The translations under genes and the position numbers were made by a program. Below, piece by piece: positions 1 through 11,380 of a stretch of DNA of 11,380 nt. The notes beneath the pieces are model-generated. The model ran no database searches and was not told the DNA's origin. It saw nothing but the letters and a program-made list of their open reading frames with translations. Numbering within the stretch: position 1 is the stretch's first letter; every line of letters begins with the position of its first letter. The DNA is taken from the NCBI RefSeq assembly GCF_003334255.1, contig NZ_QOWU01000083.1. The stretch is one strand, 5' to 3'. Source of the stretch: Escherichia coli. GTDB taxonomy: Bacteria; Pseudomonadota; Gammaproteobacteria; Enterobacterales; Enterobacteriaceae.

Positions 1-62
1 AATCGGTGGAGCTGCATGACAAAGTCATCGGGCATTATCTGAACATAAAACACTATCAATAA

Positions 63-575
63 GTTGGAGTCATTACCAAACAGGGATTATTTATTCTCTC
101 AGGCGAGAATAAAATAGACGAAGAATGTTTCATTAATATAGTCCAAACGGCTGTCGCCATAAATAACATCGGTAGAGAATCTAATGGTTATATTTTAGTT
201 GGTGTTTCCGATACCAAAGCTACGGCAGACAGAGTTAAGACTTTATATGGTGTTACCCCTATTGAGTGCAATGGCTATTATATCAATGGAATTGATCATG
301 AAGCTGTAATTCAATCAAAAAACATAGATAATTACTTTCTGTTCATAAAACAAAAAATAGAATCATTTAATTTTAATGAGGCTTTGAAACAACAAATACT
401 AAAAGATATTTCATTATGTTCATATGAAGGACTGCATGTTTTAAAAATCGAAATAAAAAGTGTCGGAGAAGTCTGTCATTTTGAAAATAGGTATTATATA
501 AGACAAGGAACAGCTACGCATTTAATCACTGACGGTGAAGCAATTAGTAGTTTACACAGATTATATTACTCATAA
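63..575 (+). CDS. Start-less ORF with Schlafen/AlbA_2-like domain signature (possible truncated or disrupted gene)
   Basis: Frame is open from 63 to the TAA at 573-575 (171 codons) in AT-rich DNA, where long open frames are unlikely by chance. Translation contains ...CFINIVQTAVAINNIGRESNGYILVGVSD... and ...GLHVLKIEIKSVGEVCHFENRYYIRQGTATHLI..., which resemble the AlbA_2/Schlafen-type motifs (CAFANtxGGxLxIGVxD; ...YIRxGxxT) from memory. No ATG/GTG in frame; first canonical start is TTG at 384; in-frame TAA at 60-62 and all three frames closed within the first 62 nt. Confidence 0.35.
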   Translation, partial: VGVITKQGLFILSGENKIDEECFINIVQTAVAINNIGRESNGYILVGVSDTKATADRVKTLYGVTPIECNGYYINGIDHEAVIQSKNIDNYFLFIKQKIESFNFNEALKQQILKDISLCSYEGLHVLKIEIKSVGEVCHFENRYYIRQGTATHLITDGEAISSLHRLYYS

Positions 576-1278
576 TTACTTAAGCACTATGAAGGTATCA
601 TACACCTTCATAGTGTACTTTTTTACTGCGCTTTGGGGCTAAATTGTTTTTGTGAATAGCCAGAATATCGTGGCTACGGCGGCAATGGAAATATATGATC
701 TCTGCTGCCAGAGACTGGAGATGTAATTGGGGGCAGTTTGGATATCGAAAATTATTGTACTATAAGGGGTCCGCTTGAGGGGGCCGCTTGGAAAACGGAA
801 ATTTTCCCACGCTAAGAGAATTGAGTTGAACGAGTGGTTACATCTAGGCCAGCTAACTCACTGAACGTAAAGGCTGTACGAAATGTTCCGACCGTCCGAT
901 AACCATTTGGCTTACTTCCGTACATTTCCTTGCGTAGATGTACAGAATTGTACGATTTCGGACACCAAAACTGCTGTTGTCCCGGTGCATGAAGCTACTT
1001 TCCGGGTTGGTGGTACTGACTTTGGTGTTCTTAACGACGACGTTTTCAACTCTGAAAATCGCCTCTCTGCACGGGGATTTTTACCCCCCCATAGAGCCGT
1101 CATATAAATTCAAATTATTAACTTTGATGGTAGAATTATCTTAGGTTTGATAAAATTTTGAGCCGTCGCCGTTTACTTCACAGGATTCAATATAATGGCT
1201 AAATATACAGTTTGTGATTACCAATAAACTATTAGAAATAATGGGAATGGTTGTGCCAATCTCTATCTGGAGGTCTTA

Positions 1279-1500
1279 TTGCAGGGAACATCCACCCCAT
1301 CGTTACACCAATACAGAATTGCCCCCGATACAAGACATCCAGACATTAACCTAATAAAAGCGCACCTTGACGAGGGCTTTCAGCAGGCAAAGTCTGAGGG
1401 ATTAAAAGTAGAGATTTCAGATTATAAAGAACGTCTTTACCTGTACATTAGAACACCTGGTAATAACCTAATGCAATATTCTGGTTGCAGAGAAAAATAA
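1279..1500 (+). CDS. Hypothetical small ORF (73 aa, TTG start); weak resemblance to integrase N-terminal arm-type segment; possibly a remnant
   Basis: ORF track only; TTG start, no convincing RBS. Segment ...SDYKERLYLYIRTPGN... loosely resembles the D-G-x-GLYLxVxPxGxK motif of P4-type integrase N-termini. Speculative. Confidence 0.2.
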   Translation: MQGTSTPSLHQYRIAPDTRHPDINLIKAHLDEGFQQAKSEGLKVEISDYKERLYLYIRTPGNNLMQYSGCREK

Positions 1501-1607
1501 TACAGTCGCGCTGGATACGCTGACATTGACGCAGTTATATGATTTTCTGGCGTTGGTCAGTAAACCAGCTGCAGCCAAAACGGTGTAGTCCCTGACACAG
1601 GCGCCGG

Positions 1608-1844
1608 TCATTCTGTTAACTCATCCACGTATGGGATGAACAGTTGTTTCAGTTTGAAACCAGGGATGTCAGACGGATTTTTGCTGGCGAGTACGAAATC
1701 CGTTACGAACTTAATGGCCAGACTATTTATGTATTGCGCCTGTGACACACACGAGAAAACAGGTAGATTGTGTGTGAGGGCAACTTTAACATAGCCTGCA
1801 GGTGTTAATTCAGGAGCATTGTTATCAGACCAAATATTTTTCAT
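1608..1844 (-). CDS. Hypothetical protein (78 aa)
   Basis: ATG-initiated ORF on the minus strand in AT-rich DNA; weak RBS; divergent from the 1873-2154 ORF. No recognisable family. Confidence 0.3.
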
Positions 1845-1872
1845 TCCATTAAATAGTCTTGTAGGGGATAAA

Positions 1873-2154
1873 ATGAATTACGATGAAATAACGAAAATCA
1901 CTGCAGAACGTATTAGCGACTACATGACTGAAGCGGTTAATACAGACTCTAAATCTGTTGCGGAAATGTTTCATAACGCTGCATGGGGAGTGCTATCATT
2001 GTGGTTTGAACTCGTCACAAAAATAGATCTGGATATACATAAAAAGAACAGGTATGCAAGTTATGATTTTAGAAGAAAAATCGAAATGCAGCATGAAGAG
2101 TTTCAGAAAATGACAGAGCGTGAGCAAGTGCCTTTATTGAAATTGCCTGAATAA
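1873..2154 (+). CDS. Hypothetical protein (93 aa from ATG 1873; ORF track gives a TTG start at 1819)
   Basis: ATG at 1873 preceded by AGGGGA (about 1863-1868) at reasonable spacing; ORF ends TAA 2152-2154; followed by a strong hairpin at 2220-2266. No recognisable family. Confidence 0.4.
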
Positions 2155-2219
2155 CAGAGACAGTGCAAACGATTATTTCATAATAACGATTATGTAATGA
2201 CTGGTAAGAAAATAACTTG

Positions 2220-2266
2220 ATTGAGTTCCCTTTATCCAGCCTGATAGTGGATAAAGGGAACTCAAT
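2220..2266. terminator. Perfect 18-19 bp inverted repeat hairpin between convergent genes; likely bidirectional intrinsic terminator
   Basis: TTGAGTTCCCTTTATCCA (2221-2238) / loop GCCTGATAG / TGGATAAAGGGAACTCAA (2248-2265), exact reverse complements. Flanked by A/T-rich sequence on both sides. Lies between the stop of the + ORF (2154) and the stop of parR (2277, minus). Confidence 0.55.
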
Positions 2267-2276
2267 AATAATTGAA

Positions 2277-2630
2277 TTAATTTATTAGCTTCATCGCATT
2301 TTTTTTGGTCTCTTCATCACTTTTTTGCTCTTGTTGTGAAGAGGATTGAGTGACTATTGAAGAATTAAAATCGGCCATCTCTTTTGGAAATAGCGATCTC
2401 AATATATTCACGATATCTGAAAATGTGGTTTCTTTCGTCAGCAGCTCACATAAAAGGAAAGGGGTCCGGGGATCTTGTCTGTATAAGGCCAGACCTGCCG
2501 TCAGTGCGGCCCGGTTAAGGCGGCTTCGTTCCCCTTGCGGGATACTGTCCAGTGTATCACAAACAATTTTATCTGTTTGATTTACATCTGGATTTAGTTT
2601 GAAGGCAATGGTTCTGCGCTTGTCCATCAT
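2277..2630 (-). CDS. parR: ParR (StbB) centromere-binding adaptor protein of type II (actin-like) partition system
   Basis: 117-aa translation [54 protein letters not shown]... matches my recollection of plasmid R1 ParR. Lies immediately downstream of parM with a TAATG stop/start overlap, the known parMR operon arrangement. Confidence 0.9.
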   Translation of the reverse strand: MMDKRRTIAFKLNPDVNQTDKIVCDTLDSIPQGERSRLNRAALTAGLALYRQDPRTPFLLCELLTKETTFSDIVNILRSLFPKEMADFNSSIVTQSSSQQEQKSDEETKKNAMKLIN

Positions 2631-3592
2631 TAATTACCTATGAGATACATACCGTTAACTAAATCATATTGAGAGTTATTGGTTTTGAAAAAACGTTCAT
2701 CACGAATCTGTGTGTGTTTTTTTACTGCATCGCATATTAATTCTGCGCCACCGCCTATAACCATAACATGAGTATAACCAGAAAATTCATTGAGCGTATT
2801 TAATACACGTTGCTCAAGTTTACGAAGTGCTTCATTCATTGCTTCGGTGACTATTGATATTTTGTTCTCATCATTAATTCGTTGCTTCAGATAGTTATTA
2901 TCTTTTCTGTGAATGATTATATCGTCAGCAAGATAGCTACTTCCTTTTGTTCTCGCAAGAGAAAGGGCATCTTTTACTGCAGATGTAACCAGAGAGACAC
3001 CAAGAGATGAGTCTCCGTATATTTTACTGATCCCCGATAATTTCCCCATTACCTGAGAAATATCTAATGTGGTGCCCCCGAGATCTATAATTAATAAAGA
3101 ATCTAACTCATCCAGTTCTTGTAGAACTTCATAACCTGCCGGTATAGATTCAGGCATGACTTTTACATCTTTTATTGTGAATGTATCCCCGCCATTTAAT
3201 GTAATTTTTTTCCGGAAGTTTGCTTTCTTACGCTCAATATTTTCCGTATTGGGTTGGTTATTTCTGTCGTAATACTCTGTCAGAGGAAGTGTGCAAACAA
3301 TATCCACTTCGCTTACCGGCAGACCACTGGTCAGTAAGGCGTGATGCACTGCAACGACATTAACGTCGCTGTATTGCCATGCGATATTGGTTGTGACTAC
3401 AGCATCCGGGCTGATTGGATCAAATGAATACTGTTCGCCGTTCAGTGTGTAGTTAAAGACCTTTTTATCACCAAAAGAGACTGCCCACTCGCGTTTGAAG
3501 CTGTTCGGGCTAATGTGCTGTTTAATTGTTCCGTCGCTTTCCTGCCACTGTAGTTTGATGTTTGTTGAACCGTCATCAATGAATACCAACAT
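2630..3592 (-). CDS. parM: ParM (StbA) actin-like plasmid segregation ATPase
   Basis: 320-aa translation [22 protein letters not shown]...[14 protein letters not shown]...[11 protein letters not shown]... carries actin-fold phosphate-binding motifs (DDGSTN, DLGGTT, GGGA) and matches R1 ParM as I recall it. RBS AAGGAG lies upstream of the ATG at 3590-3592. Confidence 0.95.
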
Positions 3593-3607
3593 TTATAAAA
3601 CTCCTTA

Positions 3608-3772
3608 TGGTGTTTTTTTGGTGTGTGTTTGGGTATGTTTTGGGTTTTAAGTGGGTTTGTTTGTCAAGTTTACCCCATTTCAACCATCAATCAATGATTA
3701 TTTGTCTTGTTTTGGTGTTTTATTGGGTTGGGTATGGGTTGTTTTTGGGTTTTGTTTGGCGGGTAACAAAAG
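3608..3772 (-). promoter_or_regulatory. parC: parC centromere/promoter region: two blocks of about five 11-bp iterons flanking the parMR promoter
   Basis: 11-bp periodic T/G-rich repeats on the + strand (for example ttgggtatgtt, ttgggttttaa, gtgggtttgtt, then after a ~45-bp spacer ttgttttggtg, ttttattgggt, tgggtatgggt, tgtttttgggt, tttgtttggcg). The spacer, read on the minus strand, contains TTGATT-16 bp-TAAACT and TTGACA. Architecture matches established R1 parC (10 iterons around the promoter). Confidence 0.7.
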
Positions 3773-4108
3773 ATGTCGCCGGGCTCCTCTTTTTACTGCG
3801 CCGGCTGACGCGGCGCGGCAGGAACGCTGCCTGTGGTCAGTGTCCCGCGTCCGGCCGGGCACGGGACGGGCGCTTTTACCGCTCCCGGCTGGCGTTGGTG
3901 ACAGTGTACGCCAGCCCGTCGCCCTTTTCTGATGAACGCCCTTCAAGCCGCTTTCGCGGCATATCCTCGCCGTCAAAAAGACGACGGCTGCGGTATTCCA
4001 CGGTCGGCCTGACCCGTTACCGGACGCGGTGAACAGCCCACAGGCAGCGGGGAACGGGCACCACAGGGGTGCCCTCCCGGTGCCCTCTGTAAGAGAAGGA
4101 GTGCTGTT
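3773..4108 (+). promoter_or_regulatory. Long GC-rich untranslated leader upstream of the methyltransferase operon; candidate structured promoter/ssi-like element
   Basis: About 335 bp with no credible ORF (only overlapping R/P/G-rich frames on both strands). Shares the 13-mer TGAACAGCCCACA (4030-4042) with 8399-8411. Ends with RBS AAGGAG before ATG 4109. Confidence 0.3.
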
Positions 4109-4792
4109 ATGTCCCGTTTTATCCTGGGTGACTGCGTGCGTGTTATGGCCACGTTTCCGGGCAATGCTGTCGATTTCATCCTCACCGACCCGCCGTATCT
4201 CGTCGGTTTCCGTGACCGTTCCGGGCGCACCATCGCCGGCGATAAAACCGATGAATGGCTGCAACCAGCCTGTAATGAAATGTACCGCGTACTCAAAAAA
4301 GACGCGTTAATGGTGAGCTTCTATGGCTGGAACCGCGTCGATCGCTTTATGGCCGCCTGGAAAAATGCGGGATTCAGCGTTGTTGGTCACCTGGTCTTCA
4401 CCAAAAACTACACATCGAAGGCCGCATATGTGGGCTATCGCCACGAATGTGCCTACATCCTGGCAAAAGGCCGTCCACGTCTGCCACAAAACCCGCTGCC
4501 GGACGTGCTGGGCTGGAAATATTCGGGCAATCGCCATCACCCGACGGAAAAGCCCGTTACCAGCCTGCAACCGCTGATTGAGAGCTTCACACACCCGAAC
4601 GCAATTGTGCTGGACCCGTTTGCAGGCAGCGGCTCAACCTGCGTCGCCGCCCTCCAGTCCGGACGCCGGTATATCGGTATCGAGCTGCTTGAGCAGTATC
4701 ACCGTGCCGGGCAGCAACGCCTTGCCGCCGTGCAACGGGCCATGCAGCAGGGGGCCGCGAATGATGACTGGTTTATGCCGGAGGCTGCGTAA
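4109..4792 (+). CDS. Orphan DNA methyltransferase, N6-adenine/N4-cytosine beta class (PF01555-like)
   Basis: 227 aa. Motif IV DPPY near the N-terminus (LTDPPYLVG) and motif I near the C-terminus (VLDPFAGSGSTCVAA), the order typical of beta-class amino-methyltransferases. Good RBS AAGGAG before the ATG. No adjacent restriction endonuclease candidate. Confidence 0.85.
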   Translation: MSRFILGDCVRVMATFPGNAVDFILTDPPYLVGFRDRSGRTIAGDKTDEWLQPACNEMYRVLKKDALMVSFYGWNRVDRFMAAWKNAGFSVVGHLVFTKNYTSKAAYVGYRHECAYILAKGRPRLPQNPLPDVLGWKYSGNRHHPTEKPVTSLQPLIESFTHPNAIVLDPFAGSGSTCVAALQSGRRYIGIELLEQYHRAGQQRLAAVQRAMQQGAANDDWFMPEAA

Positions 4793-5014
4793 ATGAACTA
4801 TGCAGGACACGAAAAACTGCGCGCCGAAGTGGCGGAGGTGGCCAATGCCATGTGCGACCTGCGTACAACCATGAATGAGATGGAGCAGCGGTACAGCTTT
4901 AATGCCGACACCCTGCCGGAACGTCTGGTGCGTCAGACGCTGTTTCGCGCAAACCGCCTCCTGATGGAGGCATATACCGAAATTCTGGAACTGGAAGCGT
5001 GCTTTAAAGATTGA
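4793..5014 (+). CDS. Hypothetical protein (73 aa), translationally coupled to the methyltransferase
   Basis: ATG immediately follows the methyltransferase TAA (TAAATG); GGAGG lies about 10 nt upstream; GC-rich codon usage consistent with neighbours. No recognisable family. Confidence 0.55.
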   Translation: MNYAGHEKLRAEVAEVANAMCDLRTTMNEMEQRYSFNADTLPERLVRQTLFRANRLLMEAYTEILELEACFKD

Positions 5015-5027
5015 GAAGGAGACGAGA

Positions 5028-5462
5028 ATGTACGGAACATGCGAAACGCTATGCCGGGAGCTGGCAGTAAAGTATCCGGGAGACATGCCGCTGATGCTGG
5101 TTATCTGGTCCCCGGAAGAGATTCAGGCACTGGCTGACGGTATGGAAATTTCTCTGACCGGTCATGAAATCAGGACCGTCCTGGCACGCCTGGAGGACAT
5201 CCCGGAAGACCAGCGGATTGAGTCCGGTATTTCTTCCGCTGCGGTGATGGAGATTATCCGCAACGAGAGCGAAAACCGCCTGGTGACCGTCCCTGCTGAA
5301 CTGCTGGCGTCCCTGATTCAGACCGCTGAACAGGCATTGTGGAAACGTGAATGGGCCGCCCGGGATCATGGCCTCGCCGTCCCGGAATGCGTCACCCGCC
5401 GTCAGGAGGTGGTTAATCAGGCCCGCACCCTGCTGAAAAACAACACACACGAAAACGACTGA
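5028..5462 (+). CDS. Conserved plasmid protein of unknown function (144 aa; possibly DUF1380-like), paralog of 7179-7601
   Basis: RBS GAAGGAGACGAGAATG. Aligns by eye with the 7179-7601 product (MY.T...RE...SLT..E..TV..RL.D...RxVTVPA..L). The DUF name is recalled, not verified. Confidence 0.6.
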
Positions 5463-6289
5463 TGTTATCGCCGCCTGCCCTGCGGGCGGCGATACAGGGA
5501 GAACGCTTAATCATGAACGAAAACAGCACGCTGAACGCACTGATTTGTCGTCACGCCCGCAACCTGCTGCTGGCGCAGGGCTGGCCGGAAGAGACGGATG
5601 TTGACCAGCGTAACCCGAAGTATCCGGGCTGGATCAGCATTTATGTTCTGCTGGATGCGCCCCGGCTGGCGACGTTACTTATCAACCGTCACGGCGGCGT
5701 ACTGCCGCCGCTCCTGGCCTCCGCCATTCAGAAACTGACCGGAACCGGGGCGGAACTGGTACTGTCCGGCAGTCAGTGGCAGTCGCTGCCGGTACTTCCG
5801 GCAGACGGAACGCAGGTGTCTTTCCCGTATGCCGGAGAATGGCTGACCGAAGACGAAATCAGGGCTGTACTTGCGGCGGTGCGCGATGCGGTACGCAGTG
5901 TCAGTTGCCGGGTGGCAGAAGATGCGCGGCGTATCCGGGCGGCGCTGACCACCACCGGTCAGACGTTGCTGACTCGCCAGACGCGCCGCTTTCGTCTGGT
6001 TGTGAAGGAAAGCGATCACCCCTGCTGGCTCGATGAAGATGACGAAAACCTGCCCGTGGTGCTCGATGCCATCGTGAACCGGGGAGCACGTTTTTCGTCG
6101 GTGGAAATGTACCTGGTCAGCGATTGTATTGAGCATATCCTGTCCAGTGGGCTGGCCTGCGATGTGCTGCGTATACCGGATGAACCGCCCCGCCGCTGGT
6201 TTGACCGTGGTGTTCTGCGGGAGGTGGTCCGGGAAGCCCGGGCCGAAATCCGCAGCATGGCGGATGCCCTGGCAAAAATCCGGAAATGA
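5462..6289 (+). CDS. Hypothetical protein (275 aa; alternative start ATG 5513 giving 258 aa)
   Basis: ATG 5462 overlaps the upstream stop (TGATG). An internal ATG at 5513 has its own RBS (AGGGAGA). Long GC-rich ORF co-oriented with neighbours. No recognisable motif. Confidence 0.6.
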
Positions 6290-6706
6290 TGACGTTGGCG
6301 GGGTAAATCCCCGCCTTTTTCCTGCCGGTCCCCGGACAGAGCACAAAGGAAGTCGCCGCCGGCTCCGCTTTACCCGGCCATGCAGGGCATGGCCTTGTGG
6401 TTTTTCAGTTATGTGGCCTCAGCGTCGTGTGCGGGCTGTGCCGTGCCTCCATCTTAGCCGGGCTGGCAGGGATGCAAGGGTACGCTTCGCCGCTGCGGTC
6501 ACCCGGTCCCTCCTTCCCGTCTGCCGTGATTTTCCGGTCGTTCACCCGCTCAGATTTCGCGGTCTCACCCTCCAACTCCCGCCAGCCGTGTGCGTCAGGC
6601 TGCGGCTTCCCTTGCGCCCTGTGCATCCCCGCCTTATCGCCCGGCTTTTATGGAGGCACGGCACCGCCCGGTGTCGCGGAATATGTGAACAACGGAGGAA
6701 AACATC
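6290..6706 (+). promoter_or_regulatory. GC-rich about 415-bp untranslated region upstream of klcA; candidate structured promoter/ssi-like element
   Basis: No credible ORF (the 6129-6734 and 6397-6741 frames are R/C/W/P-rich and overlap). Ends with TGAACAACGGAGGAAAACATCATG (RBS GGAGGA before klcA ATG 6707). Confidence 0.3.
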
Positions 6707-7132
6707 ATGCAATATGCGAAACCTGTCACTCTGAACGTTGAAGAGTGCGACCGTCTCTCCTTTCTACCGTATCTGTTTGGCAACGATTTTCTGTATGCCG
6801 AGGCGTATGTGTACGCGCTGGCGCAAAAAATGATGCCGGAATATCAGGGAGGCTTCTGGCACTTCATCCGCCTGCCGGACGGTGGCGGTTACATGATGCC
6901 GGATGGCGACCGTTTCCACATGGTGAACGGTGCAAACTGGTTTGACCGTACCGTGAGTGCTGATGCCGCAGGCATCATTCTGACTTCCCTTGTGATTAAC
7001 CGCCAGTTGTGGCTGTACCACGACAGCGGGGATGCAGGACTGACCCAGCTTTACCGGATGCGCGATGCGCAGTTGTGGCGTCACATCGAATTTCACCCCG
7101 AATGCAACGCGATTTACGCGGCACTGGACTGA
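6707..7132 (+). CDS. klcA: KlcA/ArdB-family antirestriction protein
   Basis: 141 aa; ...[68 protein letters not shown]... matches my recollection of KlcA/ArdB (Antirestrict family) proteins on IncF/IncP/IncN plasmids. RBS GGAGGA 7 nt upstream. Confidence 0.85.
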
Positions 7133-7160: not shown

Positions 7161-7178
7161 TGTAAAGGAGACGAGAAC

Positions 7179-7601
7179 ATGTACTGTACTGTTAAAGAAA
7201 TTATCCGCGAAGTGCTGAACACAGACGTGCCGGACAGTGAATGCGTTTTTGCCGTGGTGCTGACCCGTGGGGATGTGCGTCACATAGCCCAGGACTGGAG
7301 TCTGACAGACGATGAGCTGGAAACCGTCATGCAGCGACTGGACGATGCCTTTGCGCATGGTGCGGATGTCAGCATTGTTCACGACGTTGTTCGTGAGCTG
7401 ATGGAAGAAAAGCGCGCCAGCCGTCAGGTGACAGTTCCGGCGGTGATGCTGGAAAAAGTGATGGCGCTGGCAGGCAGTGAAATGAAGCGCCTGTATGCCG
7501 TCGGGAGCGAGAACGGGGGCGACGGTGACGCATTCGTCAGGGAAGAACGCGAAGCAATGGACGTTGTGTTACAGGCGCTGGACGGGGAGCACATGTCATG
7601 A
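7179..7601 (+). CDS. Conserved plasmid protein of unknown function (140 aa; possibly DUF1380-like), paralog of 5028-5462
   Basis: RBS AAAGGAGACGAGAACATG nearly identical to that of 5028. Sequence similarity to the 5028 product along the whole length, including the shared VTVPA motif. Confidence 0.6.
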   Translation: MYCTVKEIIREVLNTDVPDSECVFAVVLTRGDVRHIAQDWSLTDDELETVMQRLDDAFAHGADVSIVHDVVRELMEEKRASRQVTVPAVMLEKVMALAGSEMKRLYAVGSENGGDGDAFVREEREAMDVVLQALDGEHMS

Positions 7602-7789
7602 ATATCAGCACAGAAACCCGCGAAATTCTGCGCAATTACAAAGCCGTGATTAATGCGCGGCGTCGTGAAATGGGGCAGAAACCGCTCACCACTGCGCAGA
7701 TTGTTGATGAAATCTGCGATTTTGTGGCGAATCAGCAGGCTGTATTCCTCGGCGGTCACTACATCCTTCAGGGCAGCATAAACAGGTGA
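7598..7789 (+). CDS. Hypothetical small protein (63 aa), translationally coupled (ATGA overlap)
   Basis: ATG 7598 overlaps the TGA of the upstream gene; co-oriented; no recognisable family. Confidence 0.45.
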   Translation: MNISTETREILRNYKAVINARRREMGQKPLTTAQIVDEICDFVANQQAVFLGGHYILQGSINR

Positions 7790-7957
7790 TACAGGGGCAG
7801 GCGGTGGAGGCCGCCTGTCAGCCCGCGCGAAAACCCCTGGCAGGCTGACGCCTGCCGGAAGGGAAGCGGGCCACGCTGGCGCGTCGCCCGTTACCCTTCC
7901 CGTCTGTGATGTGTCTGACTCAGGAGTGTTTCTTTCTTATGTTATGGAACTGTTCCT

Positions 7958-8058
7958 GATGTTGTTGTTCCTTTATCTACTGCTCTGATTCTGACTACTG
8001 CAGTGTTGTTCTGTCTGCCGGGCGCACCTTCGGCTCCCGGCTGCCTGGCGGCATCCGG
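7958..8058. repeat. Copy 1 of a repeated leading-region element (77-bp core with 1 mismatch to copy 2)
   Basis: Core 7982-8058 (GCTCTGATTCTGACTACTGCAGTGTTGTTCTGTCTGCCGGGCGCACCTTCGGCTCCCGGCTGCCTGGCGGCATCCGG) matches 11304-11380 with a single T/C difference. The upstream GATGTTGTTGTTCC (7958-7971) is also shared with 11247-11260. Confidence 0.6.
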
Positions 8059-11246: not shown

Positions 11247-11380
11247 GATGTTGTTGTTCCTGCTACTGCTACTGCTACTGCTACTGCTCTTCTTTTTCCT
11301 GCCGCTCTGATTCTGACTACTGCAGTGTTGTCCTGTCTGCCGGGCGCACCTTCGGCTCCCGGCTGCCTGGCGGCATCCGG
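11247..11380. repeat. Copy 2 of the repeated leading-region element, truncated by the window end; contains a (TGCTAC)4-5 microsatellite insertion relative to copy 1
   Basis: 11304-11380 matches 7982-8058 (76/77). Between the shared GATGTTGTTGTTCC and the core there are tandem hexamers TGCTAC x4 plus TGCTC (11261-11289) that are absent from copy 1. Confidence 0.6.

What the first reader, a model, noticed from the sequence alone, without database searches (positions are those of the whole stretch)
766..792. Tandem imperfect direct repeat GGGGTCCGCTTGAG / GGGGCCGCTTGGAA in otherwise AT-rich non-coding DNA
Two adjacent copies of a GC-rich about 13-bp motif stand out in AT-rich sequence with no convincing ORF around them (600-1280). 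It could be a protein-binding site or a recombination scar.
Basis: seen in the sequence. Interest (0 to 1): 0.2.

Follow-up and report, generated by a model that had tools for sequence, protein, structure and literature searches.

The report
Duplicated tip of a transposon-end relic
The two GC-rich repeats are a 13-base tandem duplication at the outer tip of a leftover Tn3-family transposon end in the backbone of resistance plasmid R100, so this is an ordinary mobile-DNA scar and not a regulatory site.

Summary
The repeat is real. The best register is 765-777 AGGGGTCCGCTTG / 778-790 AGGGGGCCGCTTG, with 12 of 13 bases identical. The window is plasmid R100/NR1: IS1b, then the finding, then stbAB (parMR), then the leading region.

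The second unit is the first 12 nt of a 38-bp Tn3-family terminal inverted repeat (779-816). This repeat is 36/38 identical to the tnpA-end repeat of an intact Tn3-family transposon and 28-29/38 identical to R100's own Tn21 ends. It opens a 206-bp copy (779-984), truncated at its right end, of a 286-bp non-coding miniature element (repeat, putative res, repeat). At least 726 PLSDB plasmids carry that element complete. It matches none of the named TIMEs IS101, IMU, TIME244 or MITESen1 outside the repeats.

The first unit is a tandem duplicate of one flanking A plus that repeat tip. The tandem allele is in 952 PLSDB records. Four sibling IncFII plasmids have a single unit, two of the T type and two of the G type. 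Which state came first is unresolved.

A third, MITESen1-like repeat (729-766) abuts the tandem. IS4321/IS5075 has inserted at about position 22 of this repeat in several plasmids.

Verdict: a transposon-end scar with no evidence of a selected function. The side product is a probably unnamed res-carrying miniature element. Interest is low.

The parts
765..777 (+). Tandem unit 1: AGGGGTCCGCTTG, one flanking A plus a copy of inverted-repeat positions 1-12 (T at position 5)
   Evidence: 12/13 identical to unit 2. One 13-bp unit is absent from sibling plasmids L024 and L025.
778..790 (+). Tandem unit 2: AGGGGGCCGCTTG. Bases 779-790 are positions 1-12 of the complete inverted repeat (G at position 5).
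779..816 (+). IR-B: 38-bp Tn3-family (Tn21-like) terminal inverted repeat, GGGGGCCGCTTGGAAAACGGAAATTTTCCCACGCTAAG, outer tip on the left. It has no partner repeat in the window.
   Evidence: 36/38 identical to the tnpA-end repeat of the intact transposon in L015 and to the left repeat of the complete 286-bp element in L003. 28-29/38 identical to R100's own Tn21 repeats. No second copy in the window at up to 3 mismatches.
779..984 (+). Right-truncated copy (element coordinates 1-206 of 286) of a non-coding miniature element of the form repeat, res, repeat
   Evidence: 96.6% identical to L003 4002-4207; homology stops at 984. The right repeat is missing.
875..964 (.). Putative resolvase res site. 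Inferred subsites: III 875-893, II 893-924 (32 bp), I 939-964 (26 bp, TGTACAGAATTGTACGATTTCGGACA).
   Evidence: Three of the window's eight matches to TGTMCGAAA (up to 1 mismatch), including both perfect ones, fall in these 90 bp, where about 0.04 is expected. The same half-site forms palindromic sites upstream of resolvase genes in L012 and L015, with the same 14-bp gap between sites I and II as in L015. The subsite assignment is inference.
729..766 (+). IR-A: a second, different 38-bp Tn3-family inverted repeat, GGGGGCAGTTTGGATATCGAAAATTATTGTACTATAAG, in the same orientation. Its inner end abuts the tandem.
   Evidence: 35/38 identical to the repeat overlapping the tnpA stop of a Tn3-family transposon in L005 and 33/38 to the MITESen1 left repeat (MITESen1 sequence from PMC13367494 Table S2).
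799..801 (.). Point at which IS5075 (1327 bp) is inserted into IR-B in other R100-type plasmids, about position 22 of the repeat, ambiguous by one A
   Evidence: L002 junctions. Six such records are listed, and five are confirmed at junction level. IS4321/IS5075 sits at the same position in related repeats in other contexts, L027 and L028.
1..77 (+). Context: right end of IS1b (boundary of the R100 resistance determinant)
   Evidence: Annotation of NC_002134.1. The end at base 77 comes from the IS1 terminal sequence (own knowledge) and from the junction with the DUF262 reading frame.
78..575 (+). Context: 3' part of an AT-rich DUF262-family gene cut by IS1b. The gene is intact (590 aa) in sibling plasmid L024.

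Best explanation
The feature is a scar at a dead transposon end. An ancestor of the R100-type IncFII backbone acquired, between the DUF262 gene and the stb (parMR) partition locus, a small non-autonomous Tn3-family element. That element is 286 bp: a 38-bp inverted repeat, a three-subsite res, and a second 38-bp inverted repeat. It sits next to the lone inverted repeat of another Tn3-family element (IR-A). The element later lost its right 80 bp, including the partner repeat, so it can no longer transpose as a unit. The 'tandem repeat' is a 13-bp tandem duplication of one flanking A plus the first 12 nt of the left inverted repeat, most simply explained by replication slippage or repair. It exists as an insertion/deletion polymorphism: the two-unit allele is in nearly all R100-type plasmids and the one-unit allele is in a small sister clade. 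Nothing indicates that the duplication does anything. The complete inverted repeat next to it is still recognised by IS4321/IS5075, which insert at their usual position inside it. Shown: the sequences, the homologies, the allele counts and the IS insertions. Inferred: the slippage mechanism, the res subsite assignment and the lack of function.
For: The window is R100. IR-B is 36/38 identical to the repeat that overlaps the tnpA stop of an intact Tn3-family transposon (tnpA, res, tnpR) in pKpVSI78_1 (L015); a near-identical repeat followed by tnpA-end-like sequence also occurs in L013. Bases 779-984 are 96.6% identical to the left 206 bp of a complete 286-bp element bounded by inverted 38-bp repeats in IncK/I and ColV/IncF plasmids and in a Salmonella plasmid. 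The half-site TGTMCGAAA is clustered at 875-964, and the same motif lies upstream of resolvase genes in L012 and L015. The best register gives 12/13 identity and includes the flanking A. Sibling backbones L024 and L025 are collinear but carry one unit. Counts are 952 tandem against 4 single-unit records. No further copy of the motif, no partner repeat and no tnpA or tnpR remnant is present in the window.
Against: The direction of the change is not established. There are only two lineages, R100-type and pRM055-type, about 1% apart, and no outgroup. The two units differ (T/G at repeat position 5), and the two single-unit alleles differ at exactly that site. That site is one of only 5 substitutions in 3.6 kb. 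Simple duplication in the R100 lineage does not predict this pattern; it fits two independent unit losses from a two-unit ancestor, or allele exchange with other copies. None of the five complete copies examined has a 5-bp target duplication, so past transposition of the miniature element is inferred from its several contexts and is not demonstrated. Function was not tested.
Confidence: 0.8

Rival explanations
1. Unit 1 is the remnant of a second, independent inverted repeat. One copy of the element inserted into the repeat tip of a pre-existing copy, or caused a transposase-mediated adjacent deletion up to it. This left 12-13 nt of the older repeat directly in front of the complete one.
For: Unit 1 carries the consensus T at position 5 seen in most other copies (L003, L013, L015, L028), whereas unit 2 carries G. 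The two units are not identical. A third repeat (IR-A) lies immediately upstream in the same orientation, so repeat ends do pile up here.
Against: The repeat register includes the flanking A (12/13, against 11/13 for a repeat-only register), which a nested insertion does not predict. Collinear sibling plasmids have exactly one unit fewer and nothing else changed. No remainder of an older element is found downstream.
Confidence: 0.13
2. The two units form a functional tandem binding site, such as an operator or iteron-like site for a plasmid maintenance or regulatory protein.
For: The two-unit allele is nearly fixed: 952 of 956 PLSDB records that carry this junction. It also lies in the plasmid maintenance region, about 1.5 kb from stbB.
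Against: The near-fixation is explained by the clonal spread of one backbone in which this region is 100% identical. The four single-unit plasmids are typed as conjugative IncF plasmids. The sequence is fully accounted for as a transposon repeat tip. There are no further copies in the window and no promoter-like signal at the site.
Confidence: 0.03
3. The resemblance between two adjacent GC-rich 13-mers is chance.
For: 7% of Markov-simulated windows contain some adjacent 13-mer pair with at least 11/13 matches.
Against: The observed pair is 12/13 identical. It sits exactly at a repeat tip, and it differs from sibling plasmids by a clean 13-bp insertion/deletion.
Confidence: 0.02

Closest known systems
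38-bp terminal inverted repeats of Tn3-family transposons (Tn21 subgroup; Tn21 itself is on R100)
   Same: The length is 38 bp, with a GGGG outer tip and an ACGCTAAG inner end. IR-B is 28-29/38 identical to R100's Tn21 IRtnp and IRmer and 36/38 identical to the repeat overlapping the tnpA stop of an intact Tn3-family transposon, L015.
   Different: The repeat here is solo, with no partner repeat and no tnpA or tnpR in the window. Its first 12 nt plus one flanking base are duplicated in tandem.
[quoted passage not shown]
   Same: The complete relative is 286 bp, non-coding, and bounded by Tn3-type 38-bp inverted repeats. It carries a putative res, as IS101 and TIME244 do, and it is plasmid-borne in several contexts (PMC13367494; PMC4133298).
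   Different: It shows no similarity beyond the repeats to IS101, IMU, TIME244 or MITESen1. No 5-bp target duplication was seen at the 5 complete copies examined. The window copy is truncated. Mobilisation is untested.
Target sites of the IS1111-family elements IS4321/IS5075
   Same: IS5075 or IS4321 is inserted in one orientation at about position 22 of this repeat type in L002 (R100-type backbone), L027 and L028. This matches the described habit of targeting a specific position in the 38-bp repeats of Tn21/Tn501-family transposons (stated in PMC6052338, citing Partridge & Hall 2003).
   Different: The window itself carries no such insertion. Only a handful of R100-type records do.
Short tandem duplication/deletion polymorphisms produced by replication slippage
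   Same: A clean 13-bp insertion/deletion separates otherwise collinear sibling plasmids.
   Different: The units are not identical (T/G), and the single-unit alleles carry either variant. The history therefore involves more than one step.

Membership tests
Tn3-family terminal inverted repeat | About 38 bp, with a GGGG outer tip and a conserved inner end (ACGYTAAG) | tested here: met
   779-816 is GGGGGCCGCTTGGAAAACGGAAATTTTCCCACGCTAAG. It is 28-29/38 identical to the Tn21 repeats taken from R100 itself.
Tn3-family terminal inverted repeat | A near-identical repeat ends an autonomous transposon and overlaps the 3' end of tnpA | tested here: met
   In L015 the repeat lies at 3990-4027 (36/38 identical) and the annotated Tn3-family transposase CDS at 4023-7007(-) stops inside it. 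The res and tnpR follow. L013 has a similar arrangement.
Tn3-family terminal inverted repeat | Occurs as an inverted pair bounding the element | tested here: not met
   No partner is present in the window at up to 3 mismatches. The feature is met only in complete relatives elsewhere (L003, L019, L021, L022). The window copy is a relic.
Tn3-family terminal inverted repeat | Bound and cleaved by the cognate TnpA | not testable with these tools
   This needs a biochemical or transposition assay.
TIME (Tn3-derived inverted-repeat miniature element) | 50-500 bp, with no transposase gene and Tn3-type inverted repeats at both ends | tested here: met
   This is met for the complete relative, L003 4002-4287 (286 bp). 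The window copy retains only coordinates 1-206.
TIME (Tn3-derived inverted-repeat miniature element) | 5-bp (or 6-bp) direct target duplications flanking insertions | tested here: not met
   None is present at the L003, L004/L020, L019, L021 and L022 copies. This could reflect res-mediated or homologous flank exchange, but no insertion event is directly documented.
TIME (Tn3-derived inverted-repeat miniature element) | Present in several unrelated sequence contexts | tested here: met
   The element is found in IncK/I next to colicin Ia genes, in ColV/ColBM IncF between cvi and cbi, next to toxin-antitoxin genes in L021 and L022, and in the IncFII backbone here.
TIME (Tn3-derived inverted-repeat miniature element) | Mobilised in trans by a Tn3-family transposase | not testable with these tools
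   This needs a mating-out or trap-plasmid assay.
Named enterobacterial TIMEs (IS101, IMU, TIME244, MITESen1) | Sequence identity over the internal region | tested here: not met
   blastn with word size 7 aligns only the repeats, and all internal hits are 17 nt or shorter. The element is therefore not one of these four. ISfinder and TnCentral could not be queried.
Serine-resolvase res site | Three subsites of inverted half-sites, with the arrangement conserved relative to a res next to a tnpR gene | tested here: inconclusive
   Half-sites cluster at 875-964. The motif and the 14-bp gap between sites I and II parallel the tnpR-proximal regions of L015 and L012. Homology between L012 and the element starts at the centre of putative site I. 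No recombination assay was possible.
IS4321/IS5075 target | Insertion at a fixed position inside the 38-bp repeat | tested here: met
   The left junction ...GGAAAACGGAA|TCTATGG is the same in L002, L027 and L028. The insert is 1327 bp and is annotated as IS5075 or IS4321.

The most novel reading that the evidence does not exclude
The 286-bp element (repeat, res, repeat) is an undescribed, widespread res-carrying TIME. Its res, more than its repeats, drives module exchange among IncF, IncI/K and ColV plasmids. The R100-type backbone itself would then be a product of such events. Its AT-rich DUF262 (GmrSD-like) gene lies between two outward-facing transposon ends. One is a right-end relic directly after pemK that begins at the centre of putative res site I. 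The other is IR-A/IR-B. The 5 bp outside the two tips are TACTT and TAATT.
Probability: 0.15. Interest if true: 0.45.

Novelty: new member of a known kind. Interest (0 to 1): 0.2.

Why it matters
For the finding itself it matters little. It removes a candidate 'binding site' from consideration and explains an unannotated stretch of a classic plasmid as stacked transposon-end relics.

There is practical value in three places.
- The solo inverted repeat is a hot spot for IS4321/IS5075 insertion in clinically important IncFII plasmids.
- The 13-bp insertion/deletion, together with the T/G variant, is a simple lineage marker that separates R100-type backbones (952 records) from pRM055-type backbones (4 records).
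- The parent 286-bp element is common (at least 726 PLSDB records), is not annotated in the records inspected, and probably carries a res site. It could therefore account for unexplained recombination breakpoints in IncF, IncI and ColV plasmids.

Tried and rejected
- **Partner repeat.** I searched the window for a partner inverted repeat at up to 3 mismatches and found none.
- **Gene remnants.** tblastn with two Tn3-family transposases and three resolvases against window 1-3700 gave nothing significant; the best hit was E = 0.019 over 16 residues.
- **Target-site duplications.** None was seen around five complete copies of the element.
- **Species-representative genomes.** A scan with a degenerate pattern for the site I region gave 3 loci, all right-end relics only and uninformative.
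- **Literature.** Partridge & Hall 2003, which might already mention this R100 repeat, is not held. Papers on IS5075 in IncF plasmids do not describe this site.
- **Rfam and signal scans.** There were no Rfam hits. The promoter and terminator scan showed nothing at the site, only the terminator of the DUF262 gene at 584-616.
- **Nested-insertion model.** I favoured this at first and downgraded it once the 12/13 register that includes the flanking A and the single-unit siblings were seen.
- **Cointegrate model.** I considered two copies of one element flanking the DUF262 segment. This is not supported as a recent event, because the two relics are only about 86% identical over their 35-bp overlap.

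Full report
**Origin of the window.** The first 3.7 kb are 100% identical to Shigella flexneri plasmid R100/NR1 (NC_002134.1, from about position 21916) and to hundreds of IncFII-type plasmids. From the RefSeq annotation and my own reading, the layout is as follows.
- Bases 1-77 are the right end of IS1b, the boundary of the resistance determinant.
- Bases 78-575 are the 3' part of an AT-rich DUF262-family gene cut by that IS1.
- Bases 576-1870 are an unannotated stretch that contains the finding.
- Bases 1873-2154 are a hypothetical gene.
- stbB lies at 2277-2630(-) and stbA/parM at 2630-3592(-), followed by leading-region genes.

**Check of the observation.** The sequence is as described. 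GGGGNCCGCTTGR occurs exactly at 766-778 and 779-791 and nowhere else without mismatches. The best register is one base further left: AGGGGTCCGCTTG (765-777) and AGGGGGCCGCTTG (778-790), 12 of 13 identical. By composition alone such a pair is only mildly unusual: 7% of simulated windows hold some adjacent 13-mer pair with at least 11/13 matches. The local sequence is about 45% GC, not AT-rich. Only the gene fragment to its left is AT-rich.

**What the second unit is.** Bases 779-816 read GGGGGCCGCTTGGAAAACGGAAATTTTCCCACGCTAAG. This is a 38-bp sequence with the GGGG tip and ACGCTAAG inner end of Tn3-family terminal inverted repeats.
- It is 28-29/38 identical to the two Tn21 repeats read from R100 itself.
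- It is 36/38 identical to the repeat at the tnpA end of an intact Tn3-family transposon in K. pneumoniae plasmid pKpVSI78_1 (L015). There the repeat lies at 3990-4027, and the annotated transposase CDS 4023-7007(-) stops inside it. A res region and a resolvase gene at 7167-7751 follow.
- A near-identical repeat followed by tnpA-end-like sequence is in L013.
- The window has no partner repeat and no transposase or resolvase remnant.

**What the repeat belongs to.** A distant blastn of 600-1300 showed that 778-984 occurs by itself at 93-97% identity in many other plasmids. In those plasmids it is the left 206 bp of a complete 286-bp element bounded by inverted 38-bp repeats (L003 4002-4287). 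The left repeat is GGGGTCCGCTTGGAAAAGGGAAATTTTCCCACGCTAAG. The right repeat, read inward, is GGGGTCCGCTTGGAATTCGGAAAATAAACCACGTTAAG. At least 726 PLSDB records hold 80% or more of this element.

Its contexts differ. It is found in IncK/I plasmids beside colicin Ia genes, in ColV/ColBM IncF plasmids between cvi and cbi, and beside toxin-antitoxin genes in two further plasmids. In R100 the copy stops at 984, so the right 80 bp and the partner repeat are gone.

**A probable res inside the element.** The interior carries what looks like a resolvase res site.
- Three of the window's eight matches to TGTMCGAAA (up to 1 mismatch), including the only two perfect ones, lie in 875-964, against about 0.04 expected.
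- The same half-site forms palindromic sites directly upstream of closely related resolvase genes in L012 and L015.
- I read the subsites as III 875-893, II 893-924 and I 939-964, with the same 14-bp gap between I and II as in L015. This assignment is inference.
- Homology between L012 (tnpR, res, right repeat) and the 286-bp element begins at the centre of putative site I. That is where a resolvase crossover would place a module boundary.

**Comparison with named miniature elements.** The element is of the kind called TIME, a Tn3-derived inverted-repeat miniature element. IS101 and TIME244 are precedents for TIMEs that carry a res (PMC13367494; PMC4133298). Outside the repeats it matches none of IS101, IMU, TIME244 or MITESen1. 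None of five complete copies has a 5-bp target duplication. Past transposition is therefore inferred from the multiple contexts and is not shown.

**What the first unit is.** I built a query with one unit removed and searched PLSDB. Four plasmids match it without a gap. The alignment shows that pRM055_1 (L024) reads ...TATAA|GGGGTCCGCTTGGAAAACGG... and E. coli plasmid NZ_CP013026 (L025) reads ...TATAA|GGGGGCCGCTTGGAAAACGG.... Both are otherwise collinear with R100. One R100-type record (L026) lacks a single G in the run.

Counting with allele-specific queries gives 952 records with the tandem and 4 with one unit, two of the T type and two of the G type. The tandem is therefore a 13-bp insertion/deletion polymorphism made of one flanking A plus repeat positions 1-12. 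The inclusion of the flanking A argues for a simple tandem duplication. It argues against the remnant of a second, independently inserted repeat, which was my earlier hypothesis.

**Direction of the change.** This is unresolved. The single-unit plasmids form a tight clade, with 5 substitutions in 3.6 kb, that differs from R100 at about 37 sites. There are thus two lineages and no outgroup. One of the five differences within that clade is exactly the T/G site that distinguishes the two units of the tandem. That coincidence is hard to explain by chance. It suggests either two independent unit losses from a two-unit ancestor or exchange with other copies of the repeat. Both variants exist elsewhere: G in L027, and T in L003, L013, L015 and L028.

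**A third inverted repeat.** Bases 729-766 read GGGGGCAGTTTGGATATCGAAAATTATTGTACTATAAG. They form another 38-bp Tn3-family repeat in the same orientation, and its last base overlaps the first G of unit 1.
- It is 35/38 identical to the repeat overlapping the tnpA stop of a different Tn3-family transposon (L005; tnpA 4031-7018(-)).
- It is 33/38 identical to the MITESen1 left repeat.
- The finding therefore sits in a pile-up of transposon ends.

**Independent evidence that the repeat is still recognised as such.** In six R100-type plasmids listed, a 1327-bp IS5075 or IS4321 splits this region. Five of these are confirmed at the junction. In L002 the insertion lies between window positions 799/800 and 801, about position 22 of the repeat. 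The same junction (...GGAAAACGGAA|TCTATGG...) is seen in related repeats in two unrelated contexts, L027 and L028. This fits the described targeting by these IS of a fixed position in the 38-bp repeats of Tn21/Tn501-family transposons (PMC6052338, citing Partridge & Hall 2003, which I could not read).

**Mechanism and rivals.**
- The best reading (confidence about 0.8) is a non-functional scar: a truncated res-carrying miniature Tn3-family element whose left tip underwent a 13-bp tandem duplication or loss.
- A nested-insertion or adjacent-deletion origin of unit 1 remains possible (about 0.13).
- A functional tandem binding site is very unlikely. Conjugative siblings have one unit, there are no other copies, and the sequence is fully explained as a repeat tip.
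- Pure chance is excluded by the clean insertion/deletion.

**Novelty.** The kind of object is well known. The specific 286-bp element appears not to be among the named enterobacterial TIMEs, so I call it a new member of a known kind. The caveat is that ISfinder and TnCentral could not be searched.

**A more speculative reading.** This was not tested further. In this backbone the DUF262 segment lies between two outward-facing ends. One is a right-end relic of a related element directly after pemK (R100 91975-92092, 85% identical, starting at the centre of site I). The other is IR-A/IR-B. The 5 bp outside the two tips are TACTT and TAATT. This could record a transposition or res-mediated fusion event. 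The two relics are too divergent to be copies from one recent event.

Noticed in passing
window 77/78 and 78-575; R100 92230-93540 (L008); L024 2104-3876: The IS1-flanked resistance determinant of R100 sits inside an AT-rich DUF262-family (GmrSD-like) gene. The N-terminal part is annotated beside IS1a and the C-terminal 166 codons follow IS1b in the window. The gene is intact (590 aa) in pRM055_1.
   Followed up: partly
window 1526-1775: This is a pseudogene of a RelE/ParE-family toxin (...[24 protein letters not shown], with an in-frame stop). Homology to intact antitoxin-toxin pairs in other plasmids (about 92%) starts abruptly at 1526, so the antitoxin gene is missing in the R100-type backbone.
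   Followed up: partly
window 1196-1500; L024 4482-4787: A 101-aa ORF of unknown function (MAKYTVCDYQSTIRNNG...) is intact in pRM055_1 but has a premature stop after codon 10 in R100. The segment 985-1525 occurs only in this backbone family.
   Followed up: partly
R100 91975-92092 (L008; outside the window), also L011, L016, L017, L024: A right-end relic (element coordinates 172-286, 85% identical) of a related miniature element lies directly after pemK. It begins at the centre of putative res site I. Its outer tip faces the DUF262 gene, as do IR-A and IR-B on the other side. The 5 bp outside the tips are TACTT and TAATT.
   Followed up: partly
L004 and L020 (ColV/ColBM plasmids), left end of the element next to cvi; window 760-778: The widely used APEC 'cva/cvi' PCR primer ColV-F, TCCAAGCGGACCCCTTATAG, is the reverse complement of this repeat tip plus its CTATAA flank. 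The same 18 nt, CTATAAGGGGTCCGCTTG, occur in the R100 backbone, so the primer site is a transposon end and not colicin V sequence.
   Followed up: partly
L012 3307-4110: This locus has a resolvase gene, a res and a 38-bp right repeat with no transposase annotated alongside. That resembles the 'TIME-RES' type of portable recombination module described in Pseudomonas. An IS110-family element lies just outside the repeat.
   Followed up: no
window 3599-3763: T/G-rich direct repeats with 11-nt spacing lie immediately upstream of parM/stbA (family D1). Their position and period fit the parC-type centromere iterons of the ParMR system.
   Followed up: no
window 7949-8058 and 11271-11380: A 110-nt direct repeat (88% identical) lies 3.3 kb apart in the leading region, with a related 25-nt piece at 3867-3891 (families D2 and D3). 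It may be a repeated leading-region non-coding element.
   Followed up: no
window 4096-4700 compared with L024 and L025: The DNA methylase gene region is mosaic among sibling backbones. L024 differs from R100 and from L025 at dozens of sites here, although it is nearly identical to L025 upstream. This points to recombination within the leading region.
   Followed up: no
L003 3881-3945, L014 2900-2945: A tandem array of the 8-nt unit CTTGTTAT lies just left of the miniature element in IncK/I-type plasmids.
   Followed up: no
window 2220-2266: A perfect 19-bp inverted repeat with a 9-nt loop lies between the hypothetical gene and the end of stbB (I6). It is probably a bidirectional terminator.
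   Followed up: no
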